Sequence record: NC_106721.1
Source of the DNA: Escherichia phage EC148
DNA: 64,000 nucleotides
Strand: one strand, 5' to 3'
This document shows positions 29,120-40,718 of the stretch, in pieces (the first letter of the stretch is position 1; each line of letters begins with the position of its first letter). A model generated the notes under the pieces. That model made no database searches. It was not told the DNA's origin and saw only the letters and a program-made list of their open reading frames with translations. The position numbers and the translations under genes are program-made.

Positions 29120-29391
29120 GAGGTATATTTAAGTTTACCATCTTTATCTACTTTGATTTCGACTTCCGCTCGTGGTACTTGACGAACTACACCATGAATC
29201 ATCTTATAGCGAATGCCTTTAGCTGGTTCATGCTCTTTTGGAAATACTTGCTTAACCGTTACTACCTTAAAACCCTCACGCGGTGTTAACACTACTACTT
29301 GATCACCTTCTTTGATCTTCCAAGAGCCAGGAAATTCATAGGTATAGCGTTGACCACCAGTTTGGAACACAACAGAAAGATAACGTTTCAT
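29098..29391 (-). CDS. hypothetical protein
   Basis: 97 aa ORF directly downstream of a conserved promoter/leader. Confidence 0.45.
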   Translation of the reverse strand: MKRYLSVVFQTGGQRYTYEFPGSWKIKEGDQVVVLTPREGFKVVTVKQVFPKEHEPAKGIRYKMIHGVVRQVPRAEVEIKVDKDGKLKYTSCLDELL

Positions 29392-29421
29392 TTGGCTTCC
29401 CTCTCATTAATTTATATAAAT

Positions 29422-29450
29422 ATTATAACAATAAATAAGAGAGAAAGCAA
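29422..29450 (-). promoter_or_regulatory. early promoter, TTGCTT-17-TATAAT
   Basis: conserved cassette; leader ...AATTAATGAGAGGGAAGCCAAATG. Confidence 0.6.
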
Positions 29451-29640
29451 ATGAATTTTTAATAAAGTTTAGTCACTTCATAAACTATACTACGAGATTC
29501 TTTATTACGTTCTATTAAATTAGAATATGCTTTTTCAGCTTCATTTTTAGTATTAAAGTCTATAACGTGGGAGGTATTCGCTCTATTTGATTGACTATAC
29601 CAGATAACTACTAATAATTTAAACATAATAGTCCTTAAGT

Positions 29641-29727
29641 TGGTGCTGGGCACAGGATTCGAACCTGTAACGGGATTACTCCTCCTGATTACAAATCAGG
29701 TGCATTCAACCATTCTGCCAACCCAGC
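29641..29727 (-). tRNA. type II tRNA (long variable arm), anticodon loop TTTGTAA (reads as UGU), identity unresolved
   Basis: 87 nt; Ser/Leu-like body (3 bp D-stem, 15 nt variable arm) but anticodon not Ser/Leu/Tyr. Confidence 0.45.
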
Positions 29728-29892
29728 AGAACCCGTTATTTCAACGGGATTTCTTTTTCAATAACAGGAGACTTATCAGTCATAACCGCCATTGCCATTT
29801 GTTGTAGAAATTCAAAGGTGAAGGCTACACGTTCTTCACCAATCTCTACTTCTACACGTTTCTTTTGTTTATCGATCTTGACTTTTAGGTTA

Positions 29893-30144
29893 TCAGCCAT
29901 TAGAGAGTACAGTACTGGTAGTTGGCAATACTACAGATGAAGCAACAGTGTTTAAATGCTTTCTCCAGTCTAGGTTAAATTGTTTTCGAAACTCTTCATA
30001 AGGTTCTTCTGGATAAAAGCTAAAACCTCCTTTCTCATCATTCAGGATAACAGAGCCGTCAGTTTGTTCGTATGCTCGGTATGTTTCTCCAATAACAATA
30101 ACTCGTTTTTCGGTACTTTTATTACGAAACTCAAAAACGTGCAT
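29893..30144 (-). CDS. hypothetical protein
   Basis: 83 aa ORF. Confidence 0.4.
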   Translation of the reverse strand: MHVFEFRNKSTEKRVIVIGETYRAYEQTDGSVILNDEKGGFSFYPEEPYEEFRKQFNLDWRKHLNTVASSVVLPTTSTVLSNG

Positions 30145-30160
30145 AATGTTTCCTTAAAGT

Positions 30161-30236
30161 TGGAGCGGCTAGAGGGAATCGAACCCTACTCAGCGAGGCT
30201 TGGAAGGCCTGCGGCACAACCCGTGTGCTTAACCGC
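30161..30236 (-). tRNA. tRNA-Gly (UCC)
   Basis: 76 nt; anticodon loop CTTCCAA; T-arm GGGAATCGAACCC. Confidence 0.6.
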
Positions 30237-30244
30237 TTATTGTT

Positions 30245-30320
30245 TGGCTGGAGAAGGAGGAATCGAACCTACCATTAACGGAGTCAAAGGCCGTTGTGCT
30301 AACCGTTACACTACTCTCCA
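30245..30320 (-). tRNA. tRNA-Gln (UUG)
   Basis: 76 nt; anticodon loop CTTTGAC. Confidence 0.55.
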
Positions 30321-30326
30321 ATTATT

Positions 30327-30402
30327 TGGCTGGGATGCCACGGATCGAACGTGGAACCTTCGGAGTCAGAGGCCGACGATCTGCCAATTGATCTACATCC
30401 CA
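30327..30402 (-). tRNA. tRNA-Gln (CUG)
   Basis: 76 nt; anticodon loop CTCTGAC. Confidence 0.55.
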
Positions 30403-30414
30403 ATAATTTTTATT

Positions 30415-30609
30415 CTACGGAAAAATTGTTGTTGGCTCAGATTCTTCCAAACGTTTGCCTTCATGATCAACACGAATAACGCCGCATCCTTCGCAAATCA
30501 CAACTGCACCATAACCTTCTTTGACCTCAGCTTCTGTAATCAAACCAGAAAGATCACCAGTATCTTTACCCCACATATCAATGGAGCATTGTTTGCAGAA
30601 ATCAGCCAT
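30415..30609 (-). CDS. small Cys-rich protein
   Basis: 64 aa; CxxC ... CxxC. Confidence 0.35.
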   Translation of the reverse strand: MADFCKQCSIDMWGKDTGDLSGLITEAEVKEGYGAVVICEGCGVIRVDHEGKRLEESEPTTIFP

Positions 30610-30632
30610 ATTTTATTTCCTATTTAAGTTAA

Positions 30633-30709
30633 TTTGGGGTGGCTAGTGGAATTCGAATCCACATAGGCCTGATTCACAATCAGGATCATTAACCAATTAT
30701 GATATAGCC
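30633..30709 (-). tRNA. tRNA-His (GUG)
   Basis: 77 nt (extra 5' G typical of His); anticodon loop TTGTGAA. Confidence 0.65.
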
Positions 30710-31077
30710 ACAATTGAAAACTCGCAGGGTTAGCGAAACCTTCCTCAATTAGCATGTTCTAGAATACTAATCAAGTTATCTCCTATTGCACGCAGCTCAA
30801 GACGAGTACGAATTTTCAATTGTGGCGGCTCTCAGAAACTCTTCTACTCTAGTCTTAGCAGCTTACTCCCGAACGCATGTCGGGGAAGTCTTACTAAGCG
30901 CATCAAATAGCACCGTTACACTTTGAGCCATTGGTGTATCAAGAAGCAGAAGGACTTGAACCTTCACGAGATAGACCATTTATCTCAGCCGCTTTATGAG
31001 GTATGTTGCAGGGAGTGGATGTTCCCTATAAACCTTTTAGGCAGCCCCGTCTACCGATTCCGGCATACTTCAGGATT

Positions 31078-31172
31078 TGGAGGTAGGTAAGGGGATCGAA
31101 CCCTTACACCGTATCACTACGATCAACCGATTTCAAGTCGGAGTCCAGCGCCAGCCATTGGATTGACCTACC
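31078..31172 (-). tRNA. tRNA-Ser (UGA), type II
   Basis: 95 nt; anticodon loop CTTGAAA; long variable arm. Confidence 0.5.
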
Positions 31173-31184
31173 ATATAAATTGTT

Positions 31185-31275
31185 TGGCGGAAGAGGAGAG
31201 ATTTGAACTCTCAAGCCGTTTTACCAGTCAGCCACTTTCCAAGCGGTTTTCGTCACCAATTCGATTTGCTCTTCC
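31185..31275 (-). tRNA. type II tRNA-like, anticodon unresolved
   Basis: 91 nt; perfect acceptor pairing and T-arm GAGAG-TTCAAAT-CTCTC but no canonical anticodon arm found by hand. Confidence 0.35.
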
Positions 31276-31311
31276 AATAACAAGATGATGCCTCTATCAC
31301 ACCAGGCAGTT

Positions 31312-31387
31312 ACGCCTCGCTGGGATTCGAACCCATTAAAACAGCTCAACCGAGATAGTAGGTTTAATTTACTCTGACCATCAAATT
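31312..31387 (-). tRNA. tRNA-like element, non-canonical
   Basis: T-arm GGGATTCGAACCC present but acceptor stem cannot be paired. Confidence 0.2.
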
Positions 31388-31464
31388 TGGTGCGTGACAA
31401 GGGATTCGAACCCTCAAAACCCGACTTCTAAGGACGGTATGTATGCCAATTCCATCAATCACGC
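31388..31464 (-). tRNA. tRNA, anticodon loop CTTAGAA (UAG, Leu by anticodon) on a class I body
   Basis: 77 nt; acceptor and T-arm clean; anticodon stem has one mismatch. Confidence 0.4.
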
Positions 31465-31469
31465 GTATT

Positions 31470-31548
31470 TGGTGGAGAATAACGGAATCGAACCGTTCTG
31501 ATGTCCTCGGTGCAAGCGAGGTGTCCACTCCATGCAGACCCATTCCCC
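31470..31548 (-). tRNA. tRNA-Ala (UGC)
   Basis: 79 nt; anticodon stem CCTCG/CGAGG, loop CTTGCAC. Confidence 0.55.
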
Positions 31549-31567
31549 AAATTATTTAGTTTACTAA

Positions 31568-31741
31568 GGCTATTAGCTCGGCGTAACTACAGCACCTTCG
31601 CTTCGAGCGGAAGGAACCGCGTCATCTCGCAAACCCGATACACTATTCAGTTGCCACTGAATCTAGTGGACTAATCTAGAACTTCTCCCGAATCGTAGGG
31701 ATCGTGCTTTTTGGCAGCCAGTCCTAGGTCGAGCTAATACC
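31568..31741 (-). ncRNA. structured RNA candidate closed by a 12 bp long-range stem
   Basis: GGCTATTAGCTCG at 31568 pairs with CGAGCTAATACC at 31730; internal GC-rich hairpins; no ORF; directly downstream of promoter 31787-31815. Confidence 0.3.
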
Positions 31742-31786
31742 TTAGTGAACTATGATGAGGATTTCTCCTCATCAATTTATATAAAT

Positions 31787-31815
31787 ATTATAACAAGAAA
31801 TTAAGCATTAAGCAA
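31787..31815 (-). promoter_or_regulatory. early promoter, TTGCTT-17-TATAAT, feeding the tRNA/structured-RNA unit
   Basis: conserved cassette; leader contains palindrome GATGAGGAGAAATCCTCATC. Confidence 0.55.
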
Positions 31816-31833
31816 CTGCGTTTTTCTTGAAAT

Positions 31834-31912
31834 TGGTAGATCGCCTGGGACTCGAACCCAGAACCTTCCGATTAAAAGTCGGATGCTACTAAACCTATTG
31901 AGCTAGCGATCT
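31834..31912 (-). tRNA. tRNA-Lys (UUU)
   Basis: 79 nt; anticodon stem TCCGA/TCGGA, loop CTTTTAA. Confidence 0.6.
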
Positions 31913-32101
31913 ATTAGTAACCATTATACACTTCTTTAATAGAGTGGACTTTTAAGTAAGGGTGATTAGTACTAAACTCTACCATTACTTCATCCCAATT
32001 TTTACCATAATGAGCGAGTAAGGATTTTGATGTATTCTTACCTAACCGTTTGTCACTTACTACTAATCGAAATACTTTCATTTCGAAATCCTCTATTAAA
32101 A

Positions 32102-32179
32102 TGGAAGCGGGTGCAGGAATCGAACCTACCTCTTTCTAGCTTATGAGACTAGCGATCTCTACCAGAGATCTAACCCGCA
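32102..32179 (-). tRNA. tRNA, anticodon CAU (Met or Ile-lysidine)
   Basis: 78 nt; D-stem GATC/GATC, anticodon loop CTCATAA. Confidence 0.6.
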
Positions 32180-32185
32180 ATTGTT

Positions 32186-32261
32186 TGGTCAGTGCGGCAG
32201 GACTCGAACCTGCGACCCGAAGCATCCAAGGCTCCCACGCTACCAACTGCGCTACGCACTG
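32186..32261 (-). tRNA. tRNA-Pro (UGG)
   Basis: 76 nt; anticodon loop CTTGGAT; T-arm GCAGG-TTCGAGT-CCTGC. Confidence 0.6.
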
Positions 32262-32270
32262 TTAATTCTT

Positions 32271-32468
32271 TTATTGTGGAGGAATATTAATAATTCGTCC
32301 GTCTACACAATAAACGGTACTAGGAATTGTACTATATATGTAGAAATTCTTTATATTACTCTCTCCGCCACAGAAATTTTTAGCAAATTCATACTCTTTA
32401 TTAATGGTTGAGTCAAGTTTAAAACAACCAGTAAGTAGGAATACAGACAGCAGTAAAACTTTTTTCAT
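32271..32468 (-). CDS. small lipoprotein
   Basis: 65 aa; signal peptide with lipobox LLTGC; own promoter upstream. Confidence 0.5.
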   Translation of the reverse strand: MKKVLLLSVFLLTGCFKLDSTINKEYEFAKNFCGGESNIKNFYIYSTIPSTVYCVDGRIINIPPQ

Positions 32469-32500
32469 TTTGCTTTCCTTCTCAACACTTTATAAGGTAT

Positions 32501-32529
32501 ATTATACAGAGAATTAAGCATAATAGCAA
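32501..32529 (-). promoter_or_regulatory. early promoter, TTGCTA-17-TATAAT
   Basis: conserved cassette upstream of the lipoprotein gene. Confidence 0.55.
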
Positions 32530-32679
32530 ATGAATTTTTAATAAATTTACTTATTGTGTAGGCCACCTGGAGGCTACCAACCCCACGGCTGACAAAGAAG
32601 TTTGCGAGACCTCTCTTAAGTGCCAGAATAGACCCGCCGATCTATCGGAACCTACATAATAAGTAAACTTTATAGTGTC

Positions 32680-32799
32680 ATTCTAGACAGGACTCGAACC
32701 TGTTATCACTTGTGCGGACTTACGAGAACCATTCTTTCACTCGAATCGAACGAGCTTCTGCCCTCGCCAAGCTGGTTTCCCCATCAACCACGCTAGAAT
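32680..32799 (-). tRNA. atypical 120 nt tRNA-like element (two T-arm-like hairpins)
   Basis: terminal 7 bp acceptor-like pairing ATTCTAG/CTAGAAT, T-arm ACAGG-TTCGAGT-CCTGT plus internal CTCG-TTCGATT-CGAG. Confidence 0.25.
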
Positions 32800-32810
32800 G
32801 TTTGATTGTT

Positions 32811-32915
32811 TTCAGTGCAAGAGTCCGAGTCTTGGACACGACCGCTTCGCAAGTACATAGGCAGCTTATCATGAGTCAGCACTTCCGAATTGCTAGCTCC
32901 GTGTTCTGCACTGAA
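32811..32915 (-). ncRNA. structured RNA candidate closed by TCAGTGCA/TGCACTGA
   Basis: 8 bp long-range inverted repeat enclosing about 85 nt of GC-richer sequence; overlapping plus-strand ORF looks spurious. Confidence 0.25.
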
Positions 32916-32921
32916 ATTTTA

Positions 32922-33269
32922 TTAGTTTAACCGTAAAGTATTATCTACTTCACCATTAATTGTTCGGCATTCTTCTGGGATTGCTGGTGTAGCCTTATAT
33001 TCCCACCATTCAGAACCGTCGTATTCACCACGTTCTAACCAAGTTCCATCAGTAAACCACACGTTACCATAAAGCAATTGCCCACCGAAACCAGAATCAT
33101 ATTTAAAGTCTAGATTATTTAGAAAATCTTCAATATCTTTTTCTGTATAACCTACGGGTAACACCCAAACTTCTTTGTCCCCATAATAACCGAATTCTAT
33201 CTTAATACACTTAACTTCAGAATTAATATTCTTTAAGGCAAGTAACAATTCTTCTTTAGCATTAATCAT
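32922..33269 (-). CDS. hypothetical protein
   Basis: 115 aa ORF. Confidence 0.45.
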   Translation of the reverse strand: MINAKEELLLALKNINSEVKCIKIEFGYYGDKEVWVLPVGYTEKDIEDFLNNLDFKYDSGFGGQLLYGNVWFTDGTWLERGEYDGSEWWEYKATPAIPEECRTINGEVDNTLRLN

Positions 33270-33295
33270 AGCATATTTCTCGTACTAGTTTAATT

Positions 33296-33372
33296 TGGCG
33301 CGACCGATGGGATTTGAACCCACATTCCCTCCCGTGACAGGGGAGTACCATTACCAAGCCAGCCCCGGTCGC
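33296..33372 (-). tRNA. tRNA-Asp (GUC)
   Basis: 77 nt; anticodon stem CTCCC/GGGAG, loop CTGTCAC. Confidence 0.65.
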
Positions 33373-33381
33373 ATAATTCAT

Positions 33382-33567
33382 TTACTCAGCTTTGAGTTTT
33401 TCAATAGCTGCATTAAGTTCTTTAAGAAACTTTTTTCGTACATTAAGACGGTTGAGACTTACTAGTATATCATGTTTAAGTTCTTCGATGTATTTCTTCT
33501 CAACTTCAATATTGTTGATAGTGCTATCACGATGAACTTCTAGCTGTGCAATTACATTCTTGGACAT
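33382..33567 (-). CDS. hypothetical coiled-coil protein
   Basis: 61 aa ORF. Confidence 0.3.
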   Translation of the reverse strand: MSKNVIAQLEVHRDSTINNIEVEKKYIEELKHDILVSLNRLNVRKKFLKELNAAIEKLKAE

Positions 33568-33669
33568 GCTTGTTTCCTCAGTTATTAATGAAAATGGTAT
33601 CTGTGACTGAATTCGATGTCAGCAATGATAGCTGGTTGGCTACCGGTTTACTTAACTCTACACAGAATT

Positions 33670-33752
33670 TGGCGGGCCGTGTAGGATTCGAACCTACGTT
33701 GTCTTTCGACATGGATTAACAGTCCACCGCCAAACCGCTTGGCTAACGACCC
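33670..33752 (-). tRNA. tRNA-Asn (GUU)
   Basis: 83 nt; anticodon loop CTGTTAA; unusually long (13 nt) variable region. Confidence 0.45.
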
Positions 33753-33904
33753 TAAATTTATATTGCTGACTAGGATTTTCACCTAGACGGAGTTAGCACC
33801 GTAGCGTGTAGCGGCATACCTCTCCAAACCGTGCCTCATCTTTCAATTACGGAGACAGTGTTCCTACGCGTGCCTGAATTGATTTAACAACTCTTTCAGC
33901 AAAT

Positions 33905-33980
33905 TGGACGACCGCATGAGATTTGAACTCACATAAAAAGGATTTGCAATCCTTCGCCTAAGCCATTCAGCCAACGGTCG
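33905..33980 (-). tRNA. tRNA-Cys (GCA)
   Basis: 76 nt; anticodon stem AAGGA/TCCTT, loop TTGCAAA. Confidence 0.6.
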
Positions 33981-34028
33981 ATTTATCTTGTTCTGTCATG
34001 TTGCTTCTCCAGTTCAATTTATGTAATT

Positions 34029-34057
34029 ATTATACAGAACTTTTGGAAACTAAGCAA
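34029..34057 (-). promoter_or_regulatory. early promoter, TTGCTT-17-TATAAT
   Basis: conserved cassette. Confidence 0.55.
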
Positions 34058-34337
34058 CTACATTTTTTAAAAATTTGATGCCTTTCTTTTTCTTCTTATA
34101 TTTCCACGTTAAGGGATTCTGTCGATTATGAACGCTTGAGATCTTTGTCTCGTCAAAGTTCTTCAATATCATGTAATCACAGGATAATTGTTCTAATGGA
34201 ATGTGATCACCGTCAAAAGCGTATACATAAGGCTGTTGACTAGCACGATAATGATAGACTTTGTTAATTCTACGCTTCAGCAACTTATCCGCGCAGTAAA
34301 TAAAGAAGTTTTCAGGATGCATCAGCAGCTCCCTCAA
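34050..34337 (-). CDS. hypothetical protein
   Basis: 95 aa ORF; 5' end may be shorter because the ORF start overlaps its own promoter. Confidence 0.3.
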   Translation of the reverse strand: MRELLMHPENFFIYCADKLLKRRINKVYHYRASQQPYVYAFDGDHIPLEQLSCDYMILKNFDETKISSVHNRQNPLTWKYKKKKKGIKFLKNVVA

Positions 34338-34339
34338 TT

Positions 34340-34414
34340 TGGTGCACCCTGTTCGTATCGAACGAACCTCTCAAGCTCTTCAGGCAAGCGCTAATCCATC
34401 TCAGCTAAAGGTGC
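34340..34414 (-). tRNA. tRNA-Phe (GAA), tentative
   Basis: 75 nt; anticodon loop CTGAAGA; anticodon stem has two U-U mismatches. Confidence 0.4.
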
Positions 34415-34420
34415 AAATTT

Positions 34421-34497
34421 TGGCAAACCTACTAGGACTCGAACCTAGACCGTACGGTTTTGGAGACCGACATGCTGTCCAGTAACACTCTAGGAAT
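34421..34497 (-). tRNA. tRNA-Trp (CCA)
   Basis: 77 nt; anticodon loop CTCCAAA; two acceptor mismatches. Confidence 0.45.
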
Positions 34498-34505
34498 GCA
34501 GGAAT

Positions 34506-34582
34506 TGGCGTCCTGTGCGGGGATCGAACCCACAAATCCTACCTTGAAAGGGTAGTGACTTTACCAGTTTGTCTAACAGGAC
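34506..34582 (-). tRNA. tRNA-Glu (UUC)
   Basis: 77 nt; anticodon stem CTACC/GGTAG, loop CTTTCAA. Confidence 0.6.
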
Positions 34583-34589
34583 TTAAATT

Positions 34590-34680
34590 TGGTGTTGGAT
34601 GATGGAGTCGAACCACCCGAGACCCTTCCGAGTCGGCAGATTTACAGTCTGCTTCGCTACCTCTACGATACTAATCCAAC
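34590..34680 (-). tRNA. tRNA-Tyr (GUA), type II
   Basis: 91 nt; anticodon stem GCAGA/TCTGC, loop CTGTAAA; long variable arm. Confidence 0.6.
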
Positions 34681-34761
34681 ATATTTAAAAGTATTCAAAT
34701 ACTAGTTTAAACACTTTTAGATATGTTTCCAAATTAGATAACTATTATATCAAGTTTTATG

Positions 34762-34800
34762 GCACTGAGCAAGTCAAATTTTAAAGAACTTGCTCAGTGC
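34762..34800 (-). terminator. 13 bp perfect hairpin (terminator or processing site)
   Basis: GCACTGAGCAAGT ... ACTTGCTCAGTGC immediately downstream of the TGA-containing ORF; no clear U-tract. Confidence 0.4.
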
Positions 34801-34808
34801 TGTATTAG

Positions 34809-35084
34809 TTAGTCGAACTTAGGAGCGACAGTTAAGGAGAATGGAAGTTCGAAAACTTCTTCGCCCTCATCACTAACAGTAATTACACGACCTTTAAGTT
34901 CAGACATTGAAATATCAATATCAGCTTTTGCATCTGGAGCCATGCCAGCTTCAATACATTTAGCTTTAACTTCCGGCAGAAGTTCTACATCGTAGAAATA
35001 AAGCCATTCAATCTCACCTTCCCAGCCTTCTCAGGATTTACAGATTGCACTTTCAATACCAGTTGCTATAACACGATTTTGCAT
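34809..35084 (-). CDS. early ORF interrupted by an in-frame TGA at codon 18
   Basis: promoter and conserved leader abut the ATG at 35084; 17 codons, then TGA (35031-35033), then 73 in-frame sense codons to TAA at 34809. Confidence 0.35.
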
Positions 35085-35114
35085 TCGTTAACTCCTTCAT
35101 CAATTTATATAACT

Positions 35115-35144
35115 ATTATACCAGAAATTTAAAGCAAAAGGCAA
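35115..35144 (-). promoter_or_regulatory. early promoter, TTGCCT-18-TATAAT
   Basis: conserved cassette with variant -35. Confidence 0.5.
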
Positions 35145-35174
35145 GTACATTTTTAAAAATTCTGTTTGGAGGAG

Positions 35175-35381
35175 CTAAACTCCAGATTCTTCAGCTAAGT
35201 CTAGGCTAATAAGAGATATAGCCATAATTGCTGCTCCGTGTTCTCTTTCTCCTGTCTCTTTAGCTAGGGTTATAATATCAAGAAATTGCTTATGAAAGTC
35301 TGCAACCTCTTGAGTCATACCTGCCTCAGCAATCATGCCTTTAAGCATGAAACGTTGTGCGGTAATTTCGGGATTAGCCAT
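35175..35381 (-). CDS. hypothetical protein
   Basis: 68 aa ORF. Confidence 0.4.
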   Translation of the reverse strand: MANPEITAQRFMLKGMIAEAGMTQEVADFHKQFLDIITLAKETGEREHGAAIMAISLISLDLAEESGV

Positions 35382-35556
35382 GTTGTTTCTCCAGTTTCAT
35401 GTTTAATAGTCTACAAATAAAATCAATGTCTTCATCTGTGCCTAGATCTCTATCTTCAAGAGTTGCCTTGAAGTTTTTCGTCAATTCCATGAGGATAACT
35501 TCTCTAGAACGACGTGTTGGCGGAGGTGGATGTCTATACATCTTATTTCCTTAAGT

Positions 35557-35633
35557 TGGTAGGGGTGGTGGGATTCGAACCCACAAAACCTGAATTTTAA
35601 GTCCAGTACCTATACCAATTCGATTACACCCCC
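35557..35633 (-). tRNA. tRNA, anticodon loop CTTAAAA (UAA, Leu by anticodon) on a class I body
   Basis: 77 nt; acceptor GGGGGTG, T-arm GTGGG-TTCGAAT-CCCAC; 5 nt variable loop. Confidence 0.4.
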
Positions 35634-35734
35634 ATGTAATCAGTTTATTAGTTGATACATATTATAGCCTAGTGAAAATCCTACTACTAGTCCCACAAAC
35701 CAACCAATATAATAATCTTTTAGTTTCACAGGTA

Positions 35735-35920
35735 TTATCCTCGTTCAATATCTAGGGAAACACCGCAGTTAGGATTAATACCTGTACCGTTGCAATTTGA
35801 ACAAATCCAGATATTGCAAAAAGTATCTCCTGCTTCTGCATCAGAACTTTCACCAATTCCCCTACACTCAGGGCAGGCACATTCTTCTAGCTCTTGCTTG
35901 AGTTCTTGAAACTTGGACAT
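35735..35920 (-). CDS. small Cys-rich protein
   Basis: 61 aa; CACPEC ... CSNCNG. Confidence 0.4.
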   Translation of the reverse strand: MSKFQELKQELEECACPECRGIGESSDAEAGDTFCNIWICSNCNGTGINPNCGVSLDIERG

Positions 35921-35929
35921 ATAGTCTCC

Positions 35930-36118
35930 TTAGTCAATTACTTTTGAGGCTTCAAGGGAGTCGATATAGTATACGTTTTCTACCATAATCATATAATCTG
36001 CCACTTTATCCATAGCTTGGGCCTCAGAGGTAGCTCTGGCTAACCTATATCCTTTTTTATATTCATCCGGGTATTCTCTATCTTGAATAAATACAACATA
36101 AACTATGTATAATTCCAC
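35930..36118 (-). CDS. hypothetical protein
   Basis: ORF track 35930..36265 runs into tRNA genes; start moved to a GTG with AGGGG RBS near 36118. Confidence 0.3.
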   Translation of the reverse strand: MELYIVYVVFIQDREYPDEYKKGYRLARATSEAQAMDKVADYMIMVENVYYIDSLEASKVID

Positions 36119-36138
36119 TTGTAATCCCCTAATTAAGT

Positions 36139-36216
36139 TGGTGGCTCCCCGAGGATTCGAACCTACGTACCTTCCGGTTATGAGCCGGGTGCTCATACCA
36201 TATGAGCTTGAGAACC
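36139..36216 (-). tRNA. tRNA, anticodon CAU (Met/fMet or Ile-lysidine)
   Basis: 78 nt; anticodon loop CTCATAA; third CAU tRNA in the cluster. Confidence 0.5.
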
Positions 36217-36222
36217 AGAATT

Positions 36223-36311
36223 TGGCGGAAGAAGTGGGAATCGAACCCACAAGGCTATATTTCAAACCGACAGATTAGCAATCTGCTGCAATACCGTTAT
36301 GCTATTCTTCC
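36223..36311 (-). tRNA. tRNA-Ser (GCU), type II
   Basis: 89 nt; anticodon loop TTGCTAA; long variable arm. Confidence 0.55.
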
Positions 36312-36332
36312 GAATTTATAAGATATATTATA

Positions 36333-36851
36333 TTAGAAATTTAGCTTCATAGCAAGAAAATTTTTCAAGTTTTCGGTAGACATCTCATCCACATCTACGG
36401 GAGAAACAAAGCCGTTTAATTTTCTAGCAAATTTTTCACCCGCAGGATCGTTGTCTCCGACAGCTACCAATTTAAAAGGTAATAATTTCAGTTGCTTTAA
36501 TAACGCTTTTCCTGGAGAAGAACCTAACATTGCCAGGGCTGGATAACCAGCGTTATGTAGCGCAACTGCCTTAAATACAGATTCAGCGATCAATACTACT
36601 TTTTCATCTCCATTGAGAGTTTCTAGTCCCCATACACACTGGGTAGTAGAATAAGTAAAATATTTAGCTTCAAAGGGACACTTACCATGACCTTTTGGAG
36701 CAGAAGGATTATACGTCTGATAGCCTCGCAACATCCCGGAGAAGTCATACAACGGGACTGTTAGCCATCCTTCCGGACTTAACCAGCAATGATATTTATC
36801 TGTATCAAATCCTCTGGATAAGAGGTGCTGTGTTAGCTCATCAACATTCAT
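36333..36851 (-). CDS. Toprim-like domain protein (putative)
   Basis: start taken at MNVDELT; C-terminal E ... VGDNDPAG resembles a Toprim acidic motif. Confidence 0.3.
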   Translation of the reverse strand: MNVDELTQHLLSRGFDTDKYHCWLSPEGWLTVPLYDFSGMLRGYQTYNPSAPKGHGKCPFEAKYFTYSTTQCVWGLETLNGDEKVVLIAESVFKAVALHNAGYPALAMLGSSPGKALLKQLKLLPFKLVAVGDNDPAGEKFARKLNGFVSPVDVDEMSTENLKNFLAMKLNF

Positions 36852-36881
36852 ATTTGGTTCCTCTCTCAAATTTATAGATAT

Positions 36882-36910
36882 ATTATACAGAGAATTTAGC
36901 ATTCAAGCAA
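36882..36910 (-). promoter_or_regulatory. early promoter, TTGCTT-17-TATAAT
   Basis: conserved cassette. Confidence 0.55.
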
Positions 36911-37026
36911 TCAAATTTTTTAACTTTTTAGAGGAAAATCATAGGGCACTTAAGGGTAGCAGATAAGTGGGGAGGACCAAAATTTGTGACCCCACTAAAA
37001 ATCCGGGGGCAATTTTTAAAGACCCC

Positions 37027-37055
37027 TTGACATTTTCGCTGGGGTAGTGTAAAGT
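37027..37055 (+). promoter_or_regulatory. plus-strand sigma70-type promoter (TTGACA-17-TAAAGT)
   Basis: consensus -35; differs from the TTGCTT-TATAAT early cassette; precedes the plus-strand three-gene cassette. Confidence 0.45.
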
Positions 37056-37117
37056 ATATGTTATGGATGAGTGATCAAAGAGACACACATTTTCTATATA
37101 CTAGGAGGTGTCAAAAT

Positions 37118-38107
37118 ATGACAGAAGAAGTAGCTAAGAGTCCTGAGACCGTCGCTAGCGTTGCAGCAGAACTGCACAGTCACGAGGAATCAGATAAGAA
37201 AAAGTGGGAGAAGGTCAGAGCCTACGAAGAAAAACATCGTGAACACGATGATGAAGAAGAAGATGACGATGATGAACATTGTCATAAATATGGAAAACAT
37301 AAAATGCAAGAACCAGTAAACGTATTCACTAGTGGCTTCCCTGGCCTACTGGGTGGTTACCCAGCAAACGCAGGTGCTTTCGGTGGTGAAGGTATGGGAC
37401 TATTCGGAGCTATCCTAATCGGTGCTCTATTAACCGGCGGATTCGGTGGTTTCGGTGGATTCGGTGGACGTGGTGTAGTTGGTGAAGGTACCGCAGTTGA
37501 TGCAGTACTTCAGAACCAAGATACCGCTAGTATTCTAGCAGCTATCAACACTACTCGTACAGAGGCTAACCAGGGTACTGGAGCTGTTTTAAGCGCAGTT
37601 AACAATGGTTTTAGCCAGACAACCCAAAACCAGAGCCGTGATACTCAGTCTGTACTAACTACGATCTACGGTACAGGTGCTAATCTGTCTAATCAGATCT
37701 GCCAGGAAACTCGCAACGTTATTCAGGGTCAGTTCGATCTTTCTCGCCAGATTGATCAATCTTTCGCAGCTAACCAGATAGCTCGTGCACAAGATAAGTT
37801 TGATTCTGCACAGATCGCTTTCCAGCAGACTTTACAAACTAATAACCAGTTTGCCGCTGTTCAGGCTCAGATGTGTGCTAACCAGAACTCTCTGGAACGT
37901 CAGATCGCTGAATGTTGCTGTGAACTTCAGACTGCGATCGCTGGTGTAACTACTGCGCGTATCCAGGATGAGTTAGACGCATGTCGCCTACGTGAAGCAA
38001 TCGCTGCGGGTAGCGGTGCTAACGGTCAGGTAATTAATCAAATCGCTTTAAGTCTTGGTGCTATCACTCAGACTCTGGCTGGTCTGCAGGCTAAACTGCC
38101 GGCTTAA
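37118..38107 (+). CDS. membrane-anchored Gly-zipper / Gln-Asn-rich protein
   Basis: start moved to ATG with AGGAGG RBS; acidic N-terminus, GLFGAILIGALLTGGFGGFGGFGG hydrophobic Gly-rich segment, then Q/N/T-rich repeats and a CCC motif. Confidence 0.55.
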   Translation: MTEEVAKSPETVASVAAELHSHEESDKKKWEKVRAYEEKHREHDDEEEDDDDEHCHKYGKHKMQEPVNVFTSGFPGLLGGYPANAGAFGGEGMGLFGAILIGALLTGGFGGFGGFGGRGVVGEGTAVDAVLQNQDTASILAAINTTRTEANQGTGAVLSAVNNGFSQTTQNQSRDTQSVLTTIYGTGANLSNQICQETRNVIQGQFDLSRQIDQSFAANQIARAQDKFDSAQIAFQQTLQTNNQFAAVQAQMCANQNSLERQIAECCCELQTAIAGVTTARIQDELDACRLREAIAAGSGANGQVINQIALSLGAITQTLAGLQAKLPA

Positions 38108-38128
38108 TATTAAGGGGAGGAGCCCATT

Positions 38129-38545
38129 ATGAGTAAATATGGTTTTGTAAATAACGGACTTAATCAAAGTATGGGCTCCCAGCAGCCCATTCCGGGTCTG
38201 GATAACCCCTACTTACAACAGTTGCAACAGCGTTTAGCAGAAGCGCAACAGATGCAGCAACAACTCCAGCAAAACCCTGGAAGTGTGAGTCCTATGCAAA
38301 TGATGCAGCAAATGAGCGGGCAGTCGCAAATGCCTCAACAAATGCAGCAACAGGTGCCTCAGCAGCAAGTTCAGCAACAAACCCAACAACCGCAGGTTTC
38401 TGCGGAAGGACAGGCAGTACTAGCCCTTTTCGAAGACTTCGCAAAGACAGAGGATGGGAAACAGCTTGTATCACTTATGGGTAAGTTTAATAGCTTCTGC
38501 CAAAGCCAAGTTGCAAAAGCTCAAAATGGGGGTAGTAACTCCTAA
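38129..38545 (+). CDS. Gln-rich low-complexity protein
   Basis: 138 aa; GGGGAGG RBS; poly-Q/M tracts. Confidence 0.5.
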   Translation: MSKYGFVNNGLNQSMGSQQPIPGLDNPYLQQLQQRLAEAQQMQQQLQQNPGSVSPMQMMQQMSGQSQMPQQMQQQVPQQQVQQQTQQPQVSAEGQAVLALFEDFAKTEDGKQLVSLMGKFNSFCQSQVAKAQNGGSNS

Positions 38546-38554
38546 GGAGGAAAT

Positions 38555-38749
38555 ATGTGTTGCAGAAAATCTGTTTCGTGCTGCCCAGTGCCTGTAGCAC
38601 GTTGTTGCTCTCCAGCAATGTTTACGCAAATACCGGCGTTCAATCCCTTTGCCTTTAAGCCTACTCTTATCCTGCCCCCTAGAGTAGATTTTCAGTCAAG
38701 ATTGGCCTCCCGTATGGGTGGTTGCTGTACACCGAGAGTATGGTTCTAA
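38555..38749 (+). CDS. Cys-rich peptide with four CC doublets
   Basis: 64 aa; AAGGAGG RBS; MCCRKSVSCCPVPVARCCSP ... GGCCTPRVWF. Confidence 0.45.
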   Translation: MCCRKSVSCCPVPVARCCSPAMFTQIPAFNPFAFKPTLILPPRVDFQSRLASRMGGCCTPRVWF

Positions 38750-40423: not shown

Positions 40424-40493
40424 TACCGACCGTAGGATTCGAACCTACATCTTCCACCAGTTACGGCTTGATAATACCAATTATACTAGGACG
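40424..40493 (-). tRNA. tRNA-like element, anticodon unresolved
   Basis: T-arm GTAGG-ATTCGAA-CCTAC and plausible acceptor pairing; internal arms not resolved. Confidence 0.25.
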
Positions 40494-40718
40494 GCAGTGT
40501 TACTACATAAGTGATTTCCACACCCCACTATTTATAAATCAGAGAAGAGTTTAGGGGAGAGGTTTCAGACGCCTCATTTTACACGTTCTAGCCACTAACC
40601 GGGATTGCCGCCCCCTGTGTACTAGTTTTACAACTAACCCACCGACTCTATTCAATGCGCTCCGGTTGGGATTCTGCACTCAGCGTAATCGGCTCGCTGT
40701 TCCCTAATTTATGAATAT

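What the first reader, a model, noticed from the sequence alone, without database searches (positions are those of the whole stretch)
31568..32915. Two ORF-free structured elements inside the tRNA cluster
Elements at 31568-31741 and 32811-32915 are closed by 8-12 bp long-range inverted repeats, contain GC-rich internal hairpins, lie co-directional with the tRNAs and are not explained by tRNA folds. They could be tRNA-processing leaders, small regulatory RNAs or remnants of mobile introns.
Basis: seen in the sequence. Interest (0 to 1): 0.4.

Follow-up and report, generated by a model that had tools for sequence, protein, structure and literature searches.

The report
Phage T5 tRNA-cluster stable RNAs
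The window is phage T5; the first element is T5's already-annotated 'RNA2H' stable RNA, shown here to be a conserved, pseudoknotted leader RNA ahead of a tRNA in many T5-like phages. The second is an unannotated, very conserved non-coding spacer next to a tRNA-like RNA. The function of both remains unknown.

Summary
Both elements are real, lie on the minus strand with the tRNAs, and are non-coding. The window is a phage T5 strain (100% identical to T5_ev212).

**Element 1 (31568-31741)** coincides with the misc_RNA "RNA2H, stable RNA with unknown functions" in the T5 GenBank record. It matches no Rfam family. A covariance model finds homologues in five further Demerecviridae lineages: Epseptimavirus, phage Eos, Klebsiella Sugarlandvirus, and Pectobacterium DU_PP_V and My1. 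Compensatory changes support a 17-20 bp closing helix, four hairpins and a pseudoknot. In five of the six lineages a T5-type early promoter lies directly upstream, and a tRNA normally follows within 4-11 nt. It is therefore the structured 5' leader of a tRNA transcription unit, presumably freed by RNase P.

**Element 2 (32805-32921)** lies in a gap of the T5 annotation, between the T5.067 stop codon and the tRNA-like RNA2. It is 98-100% identical across T5-like loci, more conserved than the adjacent gene. Natural variants break both ORFs that cross it. Only its 10-bp closing helix is certain, because too little variation exists for covariation.

Nothing links either element to introns. Element 1 is known; its family and fold, and element 2, are new descriptions.

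The parts
31810..31815 (-). -35 hexamer TTGCTT of early promoter P13b
   Evidence: Read from the sequence. The region matches T5's annotated promoter P13b at 96%.
31787..31792 (-). -10 hexamer TATAAT of P13b, 17-nt spacer, followed by ATT, giving the ATATT discriminator of T5 early promoters
   Evidence: Read from the sequence. The ATATT signature of T5 early promoters is stated in PMC7472727. The same promoter lies upstream of the homologues in Epseptimavirus, Eos, Klebsiella phages and My1.
31753..31774 (-). 5'-proximal hairpin UGAUGAGGA-GAAA-UCCUCAUCA between the presumed transcription start and RNA2H
   Evidence: One search reports the same hairpin on the + strand. Present in T5 and Epseptimavirus; My1 and DU_PP_V carry a different hairpin; absent in Klebsiella phages and Eos, where the RNA starts 9 nt after the -10 hexamer.
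31560..31750 (-). Element 1: the RNA2H stable-RNA gene with the full closing helix. T5's annotated RNA2H corresponds to 31568-31739.
   Evidence: 97.7% identical over all 172 nt of misc_RNA rnaIIH (written 'rna2H') in AY543070. Covariance model R1 scores 237 bits here and 39-83 bits in five other lineages.
31730..31746 (-). P1, 5' strand (ACUAAGGUAUUAGCUCG). The lower part, UAAGG, is sequence-invariant.
   Evidence: Pairs with 31563-31580. The two P1 segments have 96% and 95% of cells paired, and 10 of 17 pairs show compensatory changes.
31563..31580 (-). P1, 3' strand (CGAGCUAAU-A-GCCUUAGU) with a conserved G-bulge or G.U next to the invariant GCCUUA
31720..31724 (-). Pseudoknot strand PKa (GGACU)
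   Evidence: Pairs with 31668-31672. The pairing covaries across lineages: GGACU:AGUCC, GAGUC:GACUC, GAGCC:GGCUC, UGAACC:GGUUCA, GAACC:GGUUC, GAGUC:GGCUC.
31702..31719 (-). Conserved, apparently single-stranded motif GGCUGCCAAAAAGCACGA (family consensus GGC..CCAAAAA.CACG)
   Evidence: Near-invariant across lineages.
31686..31701 (-). Hairpin H2 (UCCC-UACGAUUC-GGGA), replaced wholesale by other hairpins in relatives
31662..31680 (-). Hairpin P3 (UCUAG-AUUAGUCCA-CUAGA). Its loop carries PKb (AGUCC, 31668-31672).
   Evidence: 47/47 canonical cells and 3 of 5 pairs compensatory in the manual structural alignment.
31647..31660 (-). Hairpin P4 (UCAG-UGGCAA-CUGA). The loop is CUGGUAA in the Klebsiella and DU_PP_V lineages.
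   Evidence: 46/46 canonical cells and 4 of 4 pairs compensatory.
31627..31644 (-). Conserved junction AGUGUA followed by UCGGGUUUGCGA (family motif UUUG.GA)
   Evidence: AGUGUA is invariant in all 15 aligned sequences.
31585..31623 (-). Hairpin P6, found in two interchangeable types (T5/Eos type and Epseptimavirus/Klebsiella type)
31470..31548 (-). tRNA-Ala(UGC), 11 nt downstream of RNA2H. Its RNase P site would define the 3' end of the leader.
32805..32921 (-). Element 2: unannotated, non-coding, highly conserved spacer RNA between the T5.067 stop codon and RNA2
   Evidence: 99.2% identical to the unannotated 121-nt gap in AY543070. 218 phage records, all >= 93.9% identical. Mean identity 99.4%, against 94.1% for the adjacent CDS.
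32907..32916 (-). Element 2 closing helix, 5' strand (UUUCAGUGCA)
   Evidence: Perfect 10-nt inverted repeat. Unchanged in 19 of 20 variants; one variant carries a disruptive U to C change here. The A to G change in NBEco001 lies one position beyond the helix.
32810..32819 (-). Element 2 closing helix, 3' strand (UGCACUGAAA)
32922..33269 (-). CDS T5.067 homologue (115 aa). Its stop codon abuts element 2.
32676..32800 (-). RNA2, T5's annotated 'tRNA-like stable RNA', immediately 3' of element 2
   Evidence: 96.8% identical to misc_RNA rna2 of AY543070. Folds as a separate domain in the centroid structure.
32555..32657 (-). RNAIV, T5's annotated stable RNA, the last product before promoter P13a
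   Evidence: 97.1% identical to misc_RNA rnaIV.

Best explanation
**What the two elements are.** Both are genes, or transcript modules, for small structured non-coding RNAs of phage T5. They are made as parts of the polycistronic early transcripts that also carry the phage tRNAs.

**Element 1 (RNA2H).**
- Shown: it is the first thing encoded after the strong early promoter P13b.
- Shown: it folds on its own into a compact RNA. The 5' and 3' ends form a 17-20 bp helix (P1). The lower part of P1 (UAAGG/GCCUUA with a bulged G) is sequence-invariant.
- Shown: P1 encloses hairpins H2, P3, P4 and P6, invariant single-stranded motifs (CCAAAAAGCACG, AGUGUA, UUUG.GA), and a pseudoknot between the P3 loop and a strand just after P1.
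- Inferred: RNase P cutting at the 5' end of tRNA-Ala, 11 nt downstream, releases it. The long terminal helix then protects it from exonucleases, so it accumulates as the 'stable RNA' recorded in the T5 GenBank entry.
- Inferred: the invariant bulged helix and junction motifs, next to freely swapped peripheral hairpins, suggest it works by binding a protein partner, in trans or while still nascent. It would be an accessory function, not an essential one.

**Element 2.**
- Shown: it is a separate non-coding module of about 105 nt, closed by a 10-bp helix.
- Inferred: it is transcribed after the T5.067 coding region and separated from the tRNA-like RNA2 by the RNase P-type cut at RNA2's 5' end.
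- Inferred: it serves either as the protective 3'-terminal structure of the T5.067 message or as a further free small RNA.
For: **Identity.**
- The window is 100% identical to T5_ev212.
- Element 1 equals the annotated RNA2H, 'stable RNA with unknown functions'.
- Element 2 equals the unannotated gap between RNA2 and T5.067.

**RNA2H family.**
- Model R1 finds homologues in Epseptimavirus, Eos, DU_PP_V, My1 and Sugarlandvirus at E from 1e-9 to 1e-60.
- It finds none in 593 kb of bacterial candidate loci. Candidate loci from IMG/VR and metagenomes yielded only T5-like, Klebsiella-like and DU_PP_V copies.

**Structure.**
- 81.6% of cells are paired, against 31-42% when partners are slid, and 0 of 500 shuffles reach the observed values.
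- P1 is 95-96% paired, with 10 of 17 pairs compensatory.
- The pseudoknot is 96% paired, with 4 of 5 pairs compensatory.
- In the manual structural alignment, PK is 61/61, P3 47/47 and P4 46/46 canonical.
- Cognate strands pair much better than non-cognate strands from other lineages.
- The nested P2 helix of T5's minimum-free-energy fold is not conserved outside T5 and Epseptimavirus.

**Strand.** Many conserved G.U pairs would be A.C mismatches on the other strand. The promoter also points this way.

**Leader position.** TTGCTT-17-TATAAT-ATT lies directly upstream in five of the six lineages (not evident in DU_PP_V), and a tRNA follows 4-11 nt downstream.

**Dispensability.**
- The published T5 deletions 29191-32442 and 30661-38625 (PMC11464382) remove RNA2H, which lies at 31808-31979 in the T5 record, without killing the phage.
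- Phage FFH_1 carries a natural internal deletion of the RNA.

**Element 2.**
- Non-coding.
- 99.4% mean identity against 94.1% for the neighbouring CDS.
- It occurs without T5.067 in two Epseptimaviruses, still directly 5' of RNA2.
- It folds as its own domain.
Against: - No expression data were available. 'Stable RNA' rests only on the GenBank note, and I could not read the primary papers.
- The RNA ends are inferred from sequence, not mapped.
- A cis role for RNA2H (stabilising the transcript, helping RNA polymerase read through, or helping tRNA maturation) fits the promoter-proximal position equally well.
- No partner protein is known.
- For element 2, only the closing helix is secure. Its folding z-score is unremarkable. 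There is no compensatory change, only three wobble-compatible changes, and at least two changes would break predicted pairs.
- Element 2's extreme sequence conservation could instead reflect recent spread or a DNA-level constraint.
Confidence: 0.55

Rival explanations
1. RNA2H acts only in cis, as the leader of the P13b transcription unit. It could be a 5' structure that shields the polycistronic tRNA/mRNA precursor from 5'-end-dependent decay. It could also be a put-like RNA that modifies the transcribing RNA polymerase, so that it reads through the many hairpins and terminator-like sites of the tRNA cluster.
For: - It is promoter-proximal in every lineage where a promoter is evident. In Klebsiella phages and Eos it begins about 9 nt after the -10 hexamer.
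- In some Epseptimaviruses an ORF with a ribosome-binding site, not a tRNA, follows it directly.
- Terminator-like hairpins lie further down the same strand, at 30965-30949 and 30737-30721.
Against: - About 190 nt with a pseudoknot and invariant junctions is far more than a 5' stabiliser needs.
- No boxA-like or put-like sequence is recognisable, and no Rfam cis-regulatory family matches.
- The GenBank note says the RNA is stable, meaning it persists after processing.
Confidence: 0.25
2. RNA2H is a tRNA mimic or decoy derived from a tRNA gene. P3 and P4 would imitate the D arm and the anticodon arm, and the RNA would soak up a host tRNA-targeting defence nuclease or a tRNA-binding enzyme.
For: - In DU_PP_V and Eos the P3 loop reads A-R-G-U-G-G-U-U-C-A, which resembles a D loop.
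- P4 carries a 7-nt loop, CUGGUAA, in the Klebsiella and DU_PP_V lineages, which resembles a tRNA-Thr(GGU) anticodon loop.
- ARAGORN at 75% thresholds calls DU_PP_V positions 69-141 'tRNA-Thr (ggt)'.
- T5 tRNAs are known to counter the PARIS system and retron defences (PMC11464382 and PMC11555353).
- Neighbouring T5 RNAs (RNA1, RNA2, RNA3) are annotated as tRNA-like.
Against: - No tRNA model matches at any lenient threshold in most lineages.
- There is no T arm and no acceptor end.
- The 'anticodon' differs between lineages. In T5 itself P4 is a 6-bp stem with a tetraloop.
- The resemblance was noticed by eye.
Confidence: 0.1
3. The elements are DNA-level features or decaying remnants with no RNA function. 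Examples are homing-endonuclease target or recombination sites, or leftovers of deleted genes or introns.
For: - The tRNA cluster is a mosaic. It is rich in HNH endonuclease genes and is a known deletion hotspot.
- Hairpins of RNA2H are swapped as blocks.
- Element 2 is present or absent as a cassette, and its conservation shows no covariation.
Against: - For RNA2H, compensatory changes in six helices, strand-specific G.U pairs and a dedicated promoter argue for selection on an RNA fold.
- No intron model matches.
- Element 2 is more conserved than the coding sequence beside it, which a decaying remnant would not be.
- For element 2, a DNA-level constraint cannot be excluded.
Confidence: 0.1

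Closest known systems
Phage T5 misc_RNA 'RNA2H' (GenBank AY543070 31808-31979, also AY692264), together with T5's other tRNA-region stable RNAs (RNAI, RNAIII, RNAIV, RNA1, RNA2, RNA3)
   Same: - Element 1 is this RNA: 97.7% identical over its full length, in the same place between promoter P13b and tRNA-Ala.
- Element 2 sits in the same run of small RNAs (element 2, RNA2, RNAIV) and resembles them in size, GC content and domain-like folding.
   Different: - The record gives only coordinates and 'unknown functions'. It gives no structure, family or distribution.
- The closing helix extends about 8 nt beyond the annotated ends on each side.
- Element 2 is not annotated in either of the two annotated T5 records examined (AY543070, AY692264), or in the T5_ev212 record.
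Phage T4 'species 1' and 'species 2' stable RNAs (rnaC, rnaD) in the T4 tRNA gene cluster (from my own knowledge, not tested here)
   Same: These are small stable RNAs of unknown function, encoded among phage tRNA genes, co-transcribed with them, cut out of the tRNA precursors, and dispensable in the laboratory.
   Different: No sequence or structure comparison was made. T4 and T5 are unrelated phages, and homology is neither expected nor shown.
Structured spacers and leaders of bacterial tRNA operons that persist and act as RNAs, such as the 3' external transcribed spacer of the E. coli glyW-cysT-leuZ operon, which acts as an sRNA sponge (from my own knowledge)
   Same: A by-product of tRNA precursor processing survives and could have a trans function. 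RNase P or RNase E cleavage defines its ends.
   Different: Those spacers are short and act by base-pairing. RNA2H is about 190 nt, pseudoknotted and has its own promoter. No target complementarity was found, and there is no similarity to E. coli DNA.
put RNAs of phage HK022 (cis-acting, promoter-proximal RNAs that make RNA polymerase resistant to termination; from my own knowledge)
   Same: A promoter-proximal structured phage RNA with no ORF, lying ahead of a long transcription unit rich in hairpins.
   Different: put RNAs are about 70 nt with two stem-loops. There is no sequence or structural similarity, and antitermination was not tested.

Membership tests
T5 RNA2H (misc_RNA of GenBank AY543070 / AY692264) | Sequence identity and colinearity with the annotated RNA | tested here: met
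   97.7% identical over 172/172 nt, at window 31568-31739. 97.9% over the 191-nt extended element.
T5 RNA2H (misc_RNA of GenBank AY543070 / AY692264) | Location between promoter P13b and tRNA-Ala, on the tRNA strand | tested here: met
   P13b maps to 31761-34 (31761-31834) and tRNA-Ala to 31470-31548, both on the minus strand.
T5 RNA2H (misc_RNA of GenBank AY543070 / AY692264) | Accumulates as a stable RNA in infected cells | not testable with these tools
   Only the GenBank note is available. No expression data or primary paper could be reached.
tRNA (Rfam RF00005 / ARAGORN) | Cloverleaf with acceptor stem, D, anticodon and T arms | tested here: not met
   Neither element matches at the gathering score, at E <= 5 on 13 kb, or at E <= 10 on the isolated segments. 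ARAGORN finds nothing at default or 95% thresholds, and only inconsistent calls at 75-85%.
Group I / group II intron remnants | Match to conserved intron core models | tested here: not met
   No significant intron hit. The only intron-model matches are 14-bit, E about 3 hits of plastid group II domain-5 models to the 16-18 nt promoter-proximal hairpin. Nothing matches in element 2.
Riboswitch / cis-regulatory leader | Conserved structured domain in a 5' leader directly after a promoter | tested here: met
   Promoter-proximal in five of the six lineages, with conserved junctions and a covarying P1 helix.
Riboswitch / cis-regulatory leader | Expression platform: a terminator/antiterminator switch or sequestration of a ribosome-binding site overlapping P1 | tested here: not met
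   No terminator-like site after P1. P1 is followed by AAA, a 4-11 nt AU-rich spacer and then a tRNA.
H-type pseudoknotted RNA | Hairpin-loop nucleotides paired with a strand outside the hairpin, supported by covariation | tested here: met
   PK helix 96% paired with 4 of 5 pairs compensatory on the MAFFT alignment. 61/61 canonical cells in the manual alignment.
RNase III processing stem (as in rRNA precursors or T7 early RNA sites) | About 20 bp of double-stranded RNA formed by the flanks of the excised RNA | tested here: inconclusive
   P1 is 17-20 bp with one bulge, which is borderline for RNase III. Cleavage itself cannot be tested here.
Intrinsic terminator (considered for element 2) | GC-rich hairpin followed by a U tract | tested here: not met
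   No terminator-like site at 32805-32921 on the minus strand. The closing helix is followed by AAAACAAUCAAAC.
Known bacterial or phage stable RNAs in Rfam (6S, Y RNA/YrlA, tmRNA, SRP, RNase P, GOLLD, ROOL, HEARO and others) | Match to the family covariance model | tested here: not met
   All 4227 Rfam 15 models were scanned, with no hit to either element. ARAGORN finds no tmRNA.
Protein-coding gene | ORF maintained across relatives | tested here: not met
   Element 1: indels of 23, 7 and 1 nt and block replacement of hairpins. Element 2: stop codons in both ORFs, or loss of the ATG, in natural variants.

The most novel reading that the evidence does not exclude
RNA2H is a new class of phage effector RNA. 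In this reading, a promoter-proximal, pseudoknotted RNA uses its invariant bulged helix and junction motifs to bind and neutralise a host protein. That protein could be a tRNA-targeting defence nuclease, with P3 and P4 mimicking the D and anticodon arms. Alternatively, the RNA could reprogramme the transcribing RNA polymerase, in the manner of put RNA. Either way, the T5 tRNA island would be a mixed tRNA-plus-decoy-RNA counter-defence locus, and element 2 and the other 'stable RNAs' could be further members.
Probability: 0.12. Interest if true: 0.75.

Novelty: new member of a known kind. Interest (0 to 1): 0.35.

Why it matters
The tRNA island of T5-like phages has recently been shown to be a counter-defence locus: phage tRNAs rescue infection from PARIS and retron systems. 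The same island also encodes at least seven small stable RNAs whose function has been listed as unknown for about 20 years and which are absent from Rfam.

This work gives one of them (RNA2H) a covariation-supported fold with a pseudoknot. It also gives it a defined family spanning three or more Demerecviridae groups, and a fixed promoter-RNA-tRNA architecture. It flags a further unannotated, unusually conserved element.

That turns 'unknown stable RNA' into testable hypotheses: specific helices to break and restore, and specific processing enzymes and defence systems to test. If the answer is simply 'structured processing by-products', the result is ordinary.

Tried and rejected
- **Rfam.** Gathering and lenient scans of the whole window, of the 13-kb cluster and of each element alone found only tRNAs and noise.
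- **Host mimicry or host origin.** Blastn of both elements against 5,426 E. coli genomes gave no match.
- **Wider distribution of RNA2H.** I ran degenerate-pattern scans of IMG/VR, metagenomes and GTDB genomes, then searched the candidates with the model.
  - Only T5-like, Klebsiella-like and DU_PP_V copies turned up.
  - None appeared in bacterial genomes.
  - The pattern required TAAGG and CAAAAA.CAC, so My1-like variants would have been missed.
- **Distant homologues of element 2.** Blastn and nhmmer found none beyond the >= 94% identical copies.
- **T5's minimum-free-energy fold.** Its nested helix CUAGGACU:AGUUCUAG and CACUA:UAGUG are not conserved outside T5 and Epseptimavirus. I rejected them in favour of P3 plus the pseudoknot.
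- **RNA2H as a paralogue of RNA2 ('H' for homologue).** Model R1 finds nothing at RNA2 or elsewhere in the window.
- **tRNA-likeness.** Relaxed ARAGORN runs gave inconsistent calls.
- **Coding potential.** Rejected for both elements.
- **Literature.** Six full-text searches found no accessible paper describing RNA2H or the T5 stable RNAs. The original Ksenzenko-laboratory papers are not in the library.
- **A first column-wise conservation profile** was spoiled by large indels. I replaced it with per-feature BLAST identities.
Full report
**Where we are.** The 3.5 kb around the finding is 100% identical to Escherichia phage T5_ev212. It is 95-99.9% identical to many Tequintavirus genomes. All 21 tRNA genes found by ARAGORN lie on the minus strand, so the elements must be read on that strand.

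The reference T5 record AY543070 annotates seven misc_RNAs among the tRNA genes: RNAIII, RNAI, RNA1, RNA2H, RNAIV, RNA2 and RNA3. Most are described as 'stable RNA with unknown functions' or 'tRNA-like stable RNA' (the st0 record agrees). BLAST of those features onto the window gave these positions:

| T5 feature | Window coordinates | Identity |
|---|---|---|
| RNA2H | 31568-31739 | 97.7% |
| Promoter P13b | 31761-31834 | 95.9% |
| RNAIV | 32555-32657 | 97.1% |
| RNA2 | 32676-32800 | 96.8% |
| Unannotated 121-nt gap between RNA2 and CDS T5.067 | 32801-32921 | 99.2% |

Element 1 of the finding (31568-31741) is therefore RNA2H almost to the base. Element 2 (32811-32915) lies in a stretch that the two annotated T5 records examined leave blank.

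**Checking the observation.**
- Element 1: the inverted repeats are present and together form a 17-20 bp terminal helix. The minus-strand RNA folds at -69.3 kcal/mol, z = -3.7.
- Element 2: it has a perfect 10-nt inverted repeat 87 nt apart. Its overall fold is not unusual, z = -1.7.
- Both have tRNA-like GC content (about 0.5) in an AT-rich context.
- Neither is a tRNA. Neither matches any of the 4227 Rfam models, even at E <= 10 on the isolated segments.
- Mechanical ORFs cross both, and one pipeline annotated two of them. They are not maintained. RNA2H relatives differ by indels of 23, 7 and 1 nt and by block replacement of hairpins. In element 2, the common G-to-T variant creates a stop codon in both overlapping frames. 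Phage TrudiGerster lacks the ATG and has further stops.

**RNA2H is a conserved structured RNA family.**

Blastn finds the element in 425 phage records, in three identity bands: >= 95%, 80-90% and 60-80%. An alignment of Tequintavirus and Epseptimavirus copies shows an almost invariant core. Two hairpins (H2 and P6) are replaced wholesale by different hairpins.

A covariance model built from that alignment (R1) detects full-length homologues elsewhere:

| Phage | Group | Score (bits) |
|---|---|---|
| Eos | unclassified Markadamsvirinae | 82.6 |
| Pectobacterium DU_PP_V | Hongcheonvirus | 67 |
| Five Klebsiella phages | Sugarlandvirus | 52-58 |
| Pectobacterium My1 | Myunavirus | 39 |

About 79 Klebsiella phage records carry the Sugarlandvirus version. 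Pattern scans of IMG/VR, metagenomes and GTDB genomes, followed by model searches, added only T5-like, Klebsiella-like and DU_PP_V copies. They added nothing from bacterial genomes.

**The fold.**

With these divergent members the helices covary. On a 15-sequence MAFFT alignment (A3), I tested a structure made of P1, H2, P3, P4, P6 and a pseudoknot:
- 81.6% of cells are paired, against 31-42% when partners are slid by 1-3 columns.
- No shuffle out of 500 reaches the observed values for paired cells, compensatory pairs or covariation score.
- The two segments of P1 are 96% and 95% paired, and 10 of 17 pairs show compensatory changes.

The pseudoknot joins the strand just 5' of the conserved GGC..CCAAAAA.CACG motif to the loop of hairpin P3. 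It is 96% paired, with 4 of 5 pairs compensatory. The pairing reads:
- GGACU:AGUCC in T5
- GAGUC:GACUC and GAGCC:GGCUC in Klebsiella phages
- UGAACC:GGUUCA in Eos
- GAACC:GGUUC in DU_PP_V
- GAGUC:GGCUC in My1

In a hand-made structural alignment, PK, P3 and P4 are canonical in 61/61, 47/47 and 46/46 cells. Cognate strands pair much better than strands taken from different lineages.

The nested helix predicted by T5's minimum-free-energy fold (CUAGGACU:AGUUCUAG) is not conserved outside T5 and Epseptimavirus, so I reject it. Conserved G.U pairs and the promoter orientation fix the functional strand as the tRNA strand.

Three stretches appear single-stranded and are nearly invariant: CCAAAAAGCACG, AGUGUA and UUUG.GA. 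The lower part of P1 (UAAGG / GCCUUA with a bulged G or G.U) is also sequence-invariant, while the upper part of P1 covaries freely. Invariant junctions and a bulged helix beside freely exchangeable peripheral hairpins are what one expects of an RNA recognised by a specific partner. That reading is an inference.

**Genomic grammar of RNA2H.**

A near-consensus sigma-70 promoter lies directly upstream in T5, Epseptimavirus, Eos, the Klebsiella phages and My1. It reads TTGCTT/TTGCTA, a 17-nt spacer, then TATAAT followed by ATT. ATATT in the discriminator region is the published signature of T5 early promoters (PMC7472727). In the window the -35 hexamer is at 31815-31810 and the -10 hexamer at 31792-31787.

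- In the Klebsiella phages and Eos the RNA begins 9 nt after the -10 hexamer, essentially at the transcript's 5' end.
- In T5, Epseptimavirus, My1 and DU_PP_V a short hairpin is interposed (window 31753-31774).
- Downstream, a tRNA (Ala or Leu) starts 4-11 nt after the helix. In two Epseptimaviruses a small ORF has been inserted there.

RNA2H is thus the structured 5' leader of an early tRNA transcription unit. The natural inference is that RNase P cleavage at the tRNA's 5' end frees it, and that the long terminal helix protects it. This would explain the 'stable RNA' label.

It is not essential. The published viable T5 deletions 29191-32442 and 30661-38625 (PMC11464382) span its T5 coordinates 31808-31979. 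Phage FFH_1 retains only positions 1-22 and 143-191.

**Element 2.**

Blastn finds it in 218 phage records, all >= 93.9% identical. No more distant relative was found by blastn or nhmmer. Mean identity to T5 across 22 T5-like loci:

| Feature | Mean identity |
|---|---|
| Element 2 | 99.4% (minimum 98.3%) |
| Adjacent CDS T5.067 | 94.1% |
| RNA2 | 96.7% |
| RNAIV | 97.2% |
| Promoter P13a | 91.2% |

- **Position.** It starts right after the T5.067 stop codon. It ends 4 nt before RNA2's annotated start, about 14 nt before RNA2's acceptor stem.
- **Cassette behaviour.** In Epseptimaviruses KKP 3953 and TrudiGerster it occurs without T5.067. There it follows an unannotated tRNA-like element ending in CCA, and it is still joined to RNA2. 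In other Epseptimaviruses a different hairpin of about 50 nt takes its place. It therefore behaves as a cassette tied to RNA2.
- **Folding.** The centroid fold of 32550-32925 shows element 2, RNA2 and RNAIV as three separate domains, each with its own closing helix.
- **Variation.** The few substitutions fall mostly in predicted loops or are wobble-compatible (A15G with U103, C21U with G83, C69U with G40). At least two would break predicted pairs, and none is compensatory.

Only the closing helix can be asserted. The internal structure, and whether a free RNA accumulates, remain open. Such strong sequence conservation without covariation is also compatible with recent spread or with a DNA-level constraint.

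**How it most likely works.**

*RNA2H.*
- Shown: it is a real, conserved, pseudoknotted RNA domain encoded on the tRNA strand, promoter-proximal and directly ahead of a tRNA.
- Inferred: RNase P releases it and the terminal helix stabilises it.
- Inferred: it binds a protein through the invariant motifs and has an accessory role.
- I cannot decide between a trans-acting role and a cis role (transcript protection, polymerase modification, or help with tRNA maturation).
- A resemblance of P3 and P4 to D and anticodon arms is only a lead. It rests on a D-loop-like AAGUGGUUCA in DU_PP_V and Eos and a CUGGUAA loop in the Klebsiella and DU_PP_V lineages. tRNA detectors do not support it.

*Element 2.* The most economical reading is a structured module that becomes the 3' end of the T5.067 message, or a free small RNA, once the tRNA-like RNA2 is processed.

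**Comparison with what is known, and novelty.**
- The existence of RNA2H is already recorded in GenBank.
- Its fold, pseudoknot, family distribution and promoter-RNA-tRNA grammar are not curated in Rfam. I could not find them in the accessible literature.
- The closest analogues are T5's other tRNA-region RNAs and T4's species 1 and 2 RNAs (the latter from my own knowledge). These are stable, dispensable RNAs of unknown function, cut from phage tRNA precursors.
- Element 2 would be one more member of that kind.
- Nothing supports intron remnants.

I rate the finding as modestly interesting. The features are real, one of them is already known, and the function is still open.

Noticed in passing
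window 30713-31067: Three more T5 'stable RNAs' lie back to back between tRNA-His and tRNA-Ser: RNAIII (99% identical to T5), RNAI (92%) and RNA1 (86%). None matches an Rfam family. Two terminator-like hairpins on the minus strand (30965-30949 and 30737-30721) fall inside or at the ends of them.
   Followed up: partly
window 31082-31172, 31189-31275, 30164-30237, 36142-36216, 40424-40495: ARAGORN missed several tRNA genes. The first three appear only as sub-threshold tRNA-Sec-model hits; other records annotate them as two tRNA-Ser and one tRNA-Gly. The last two reach the Rfam tRNA gathering score.
   Followed up: partly
window 31742-31834, 31068-31081, 31276-31387 and 33753-33904, compared with AY543070: This strain lacks tRNA-Val, CDS T5.063, the HNH endonuclease gene hegC and CDS T5.069, all present in reference T5. 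The tRNA island is a mosaic of insertions and deletions around the RNA genes.
   Followed up: partly
window 33753-33904: A 152-nt stretch between tRNA-Asn and tRNA-Cys has no ORF longer than about 36 aa and a GC content of about 0.45-0.48. Reference T5 carries CDS T5.069 at this position. It could be another structured RNA or a deletion scar.
   Followed up: no
window 31276-31387: The spacer between tRNA-Ser and tRNA-Leu contains a T-arm-like GGGATTCGAACCC. It looks like a tRNA remnant, or the 5' extension of the longer tRNA-Leu annotated in T5. In T5 the HNH gene hegC sits here.
   Followed up: no
L040:496-588 (Salmonella phage KKP 3953) and L201:~313-398 (Escherichia phage TrudiGerster): Directly upstream of element 2 lies an unannotated tRNA-like sequence. 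It has a GGGGUCU/AGACUCC acceptor-type pairing and an encoded ACCA end.
   Followed up: no
L026:6415-6479 (Escherichia phage FFH_1) and H79 (Salmonella phage SP76): These are natural RNA2H deletion variants. FFH_1 keeps only positions 1-22 and 143-191, joined at a 6-nt overlap. SP76 keeps only positions 1-124.
   Followed up: partly
L039:2501-2699 (Salmonella phage S126): A 7-nt tandem duplication (TGAATAG) sits on the 3' side of hairpin P4 of RNA2H.
   Followed up: no
L044:4907-5088 (Pectobacterium phage DU_PP_V): A weak second match to the RNA2H model (13 bits, E about 0.07) lies elsewhere in the same tRNA cluster. It could be a diverged paralogue or noise.
   Followed up: no
L038-L043, upstream of RNA2 (for example L042:519-590): Most Epseptimaviruses carry a different conserved hairpin of about 50 nt (AGAGUAAAGGCUACAGUAGGUGCACCCUUACGGACUGCUACACCGGACUCU) where T5 has element 2. 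In those genomes RNA2 is followed by a tRNA-Gly(GCC).
   Followed up: partly
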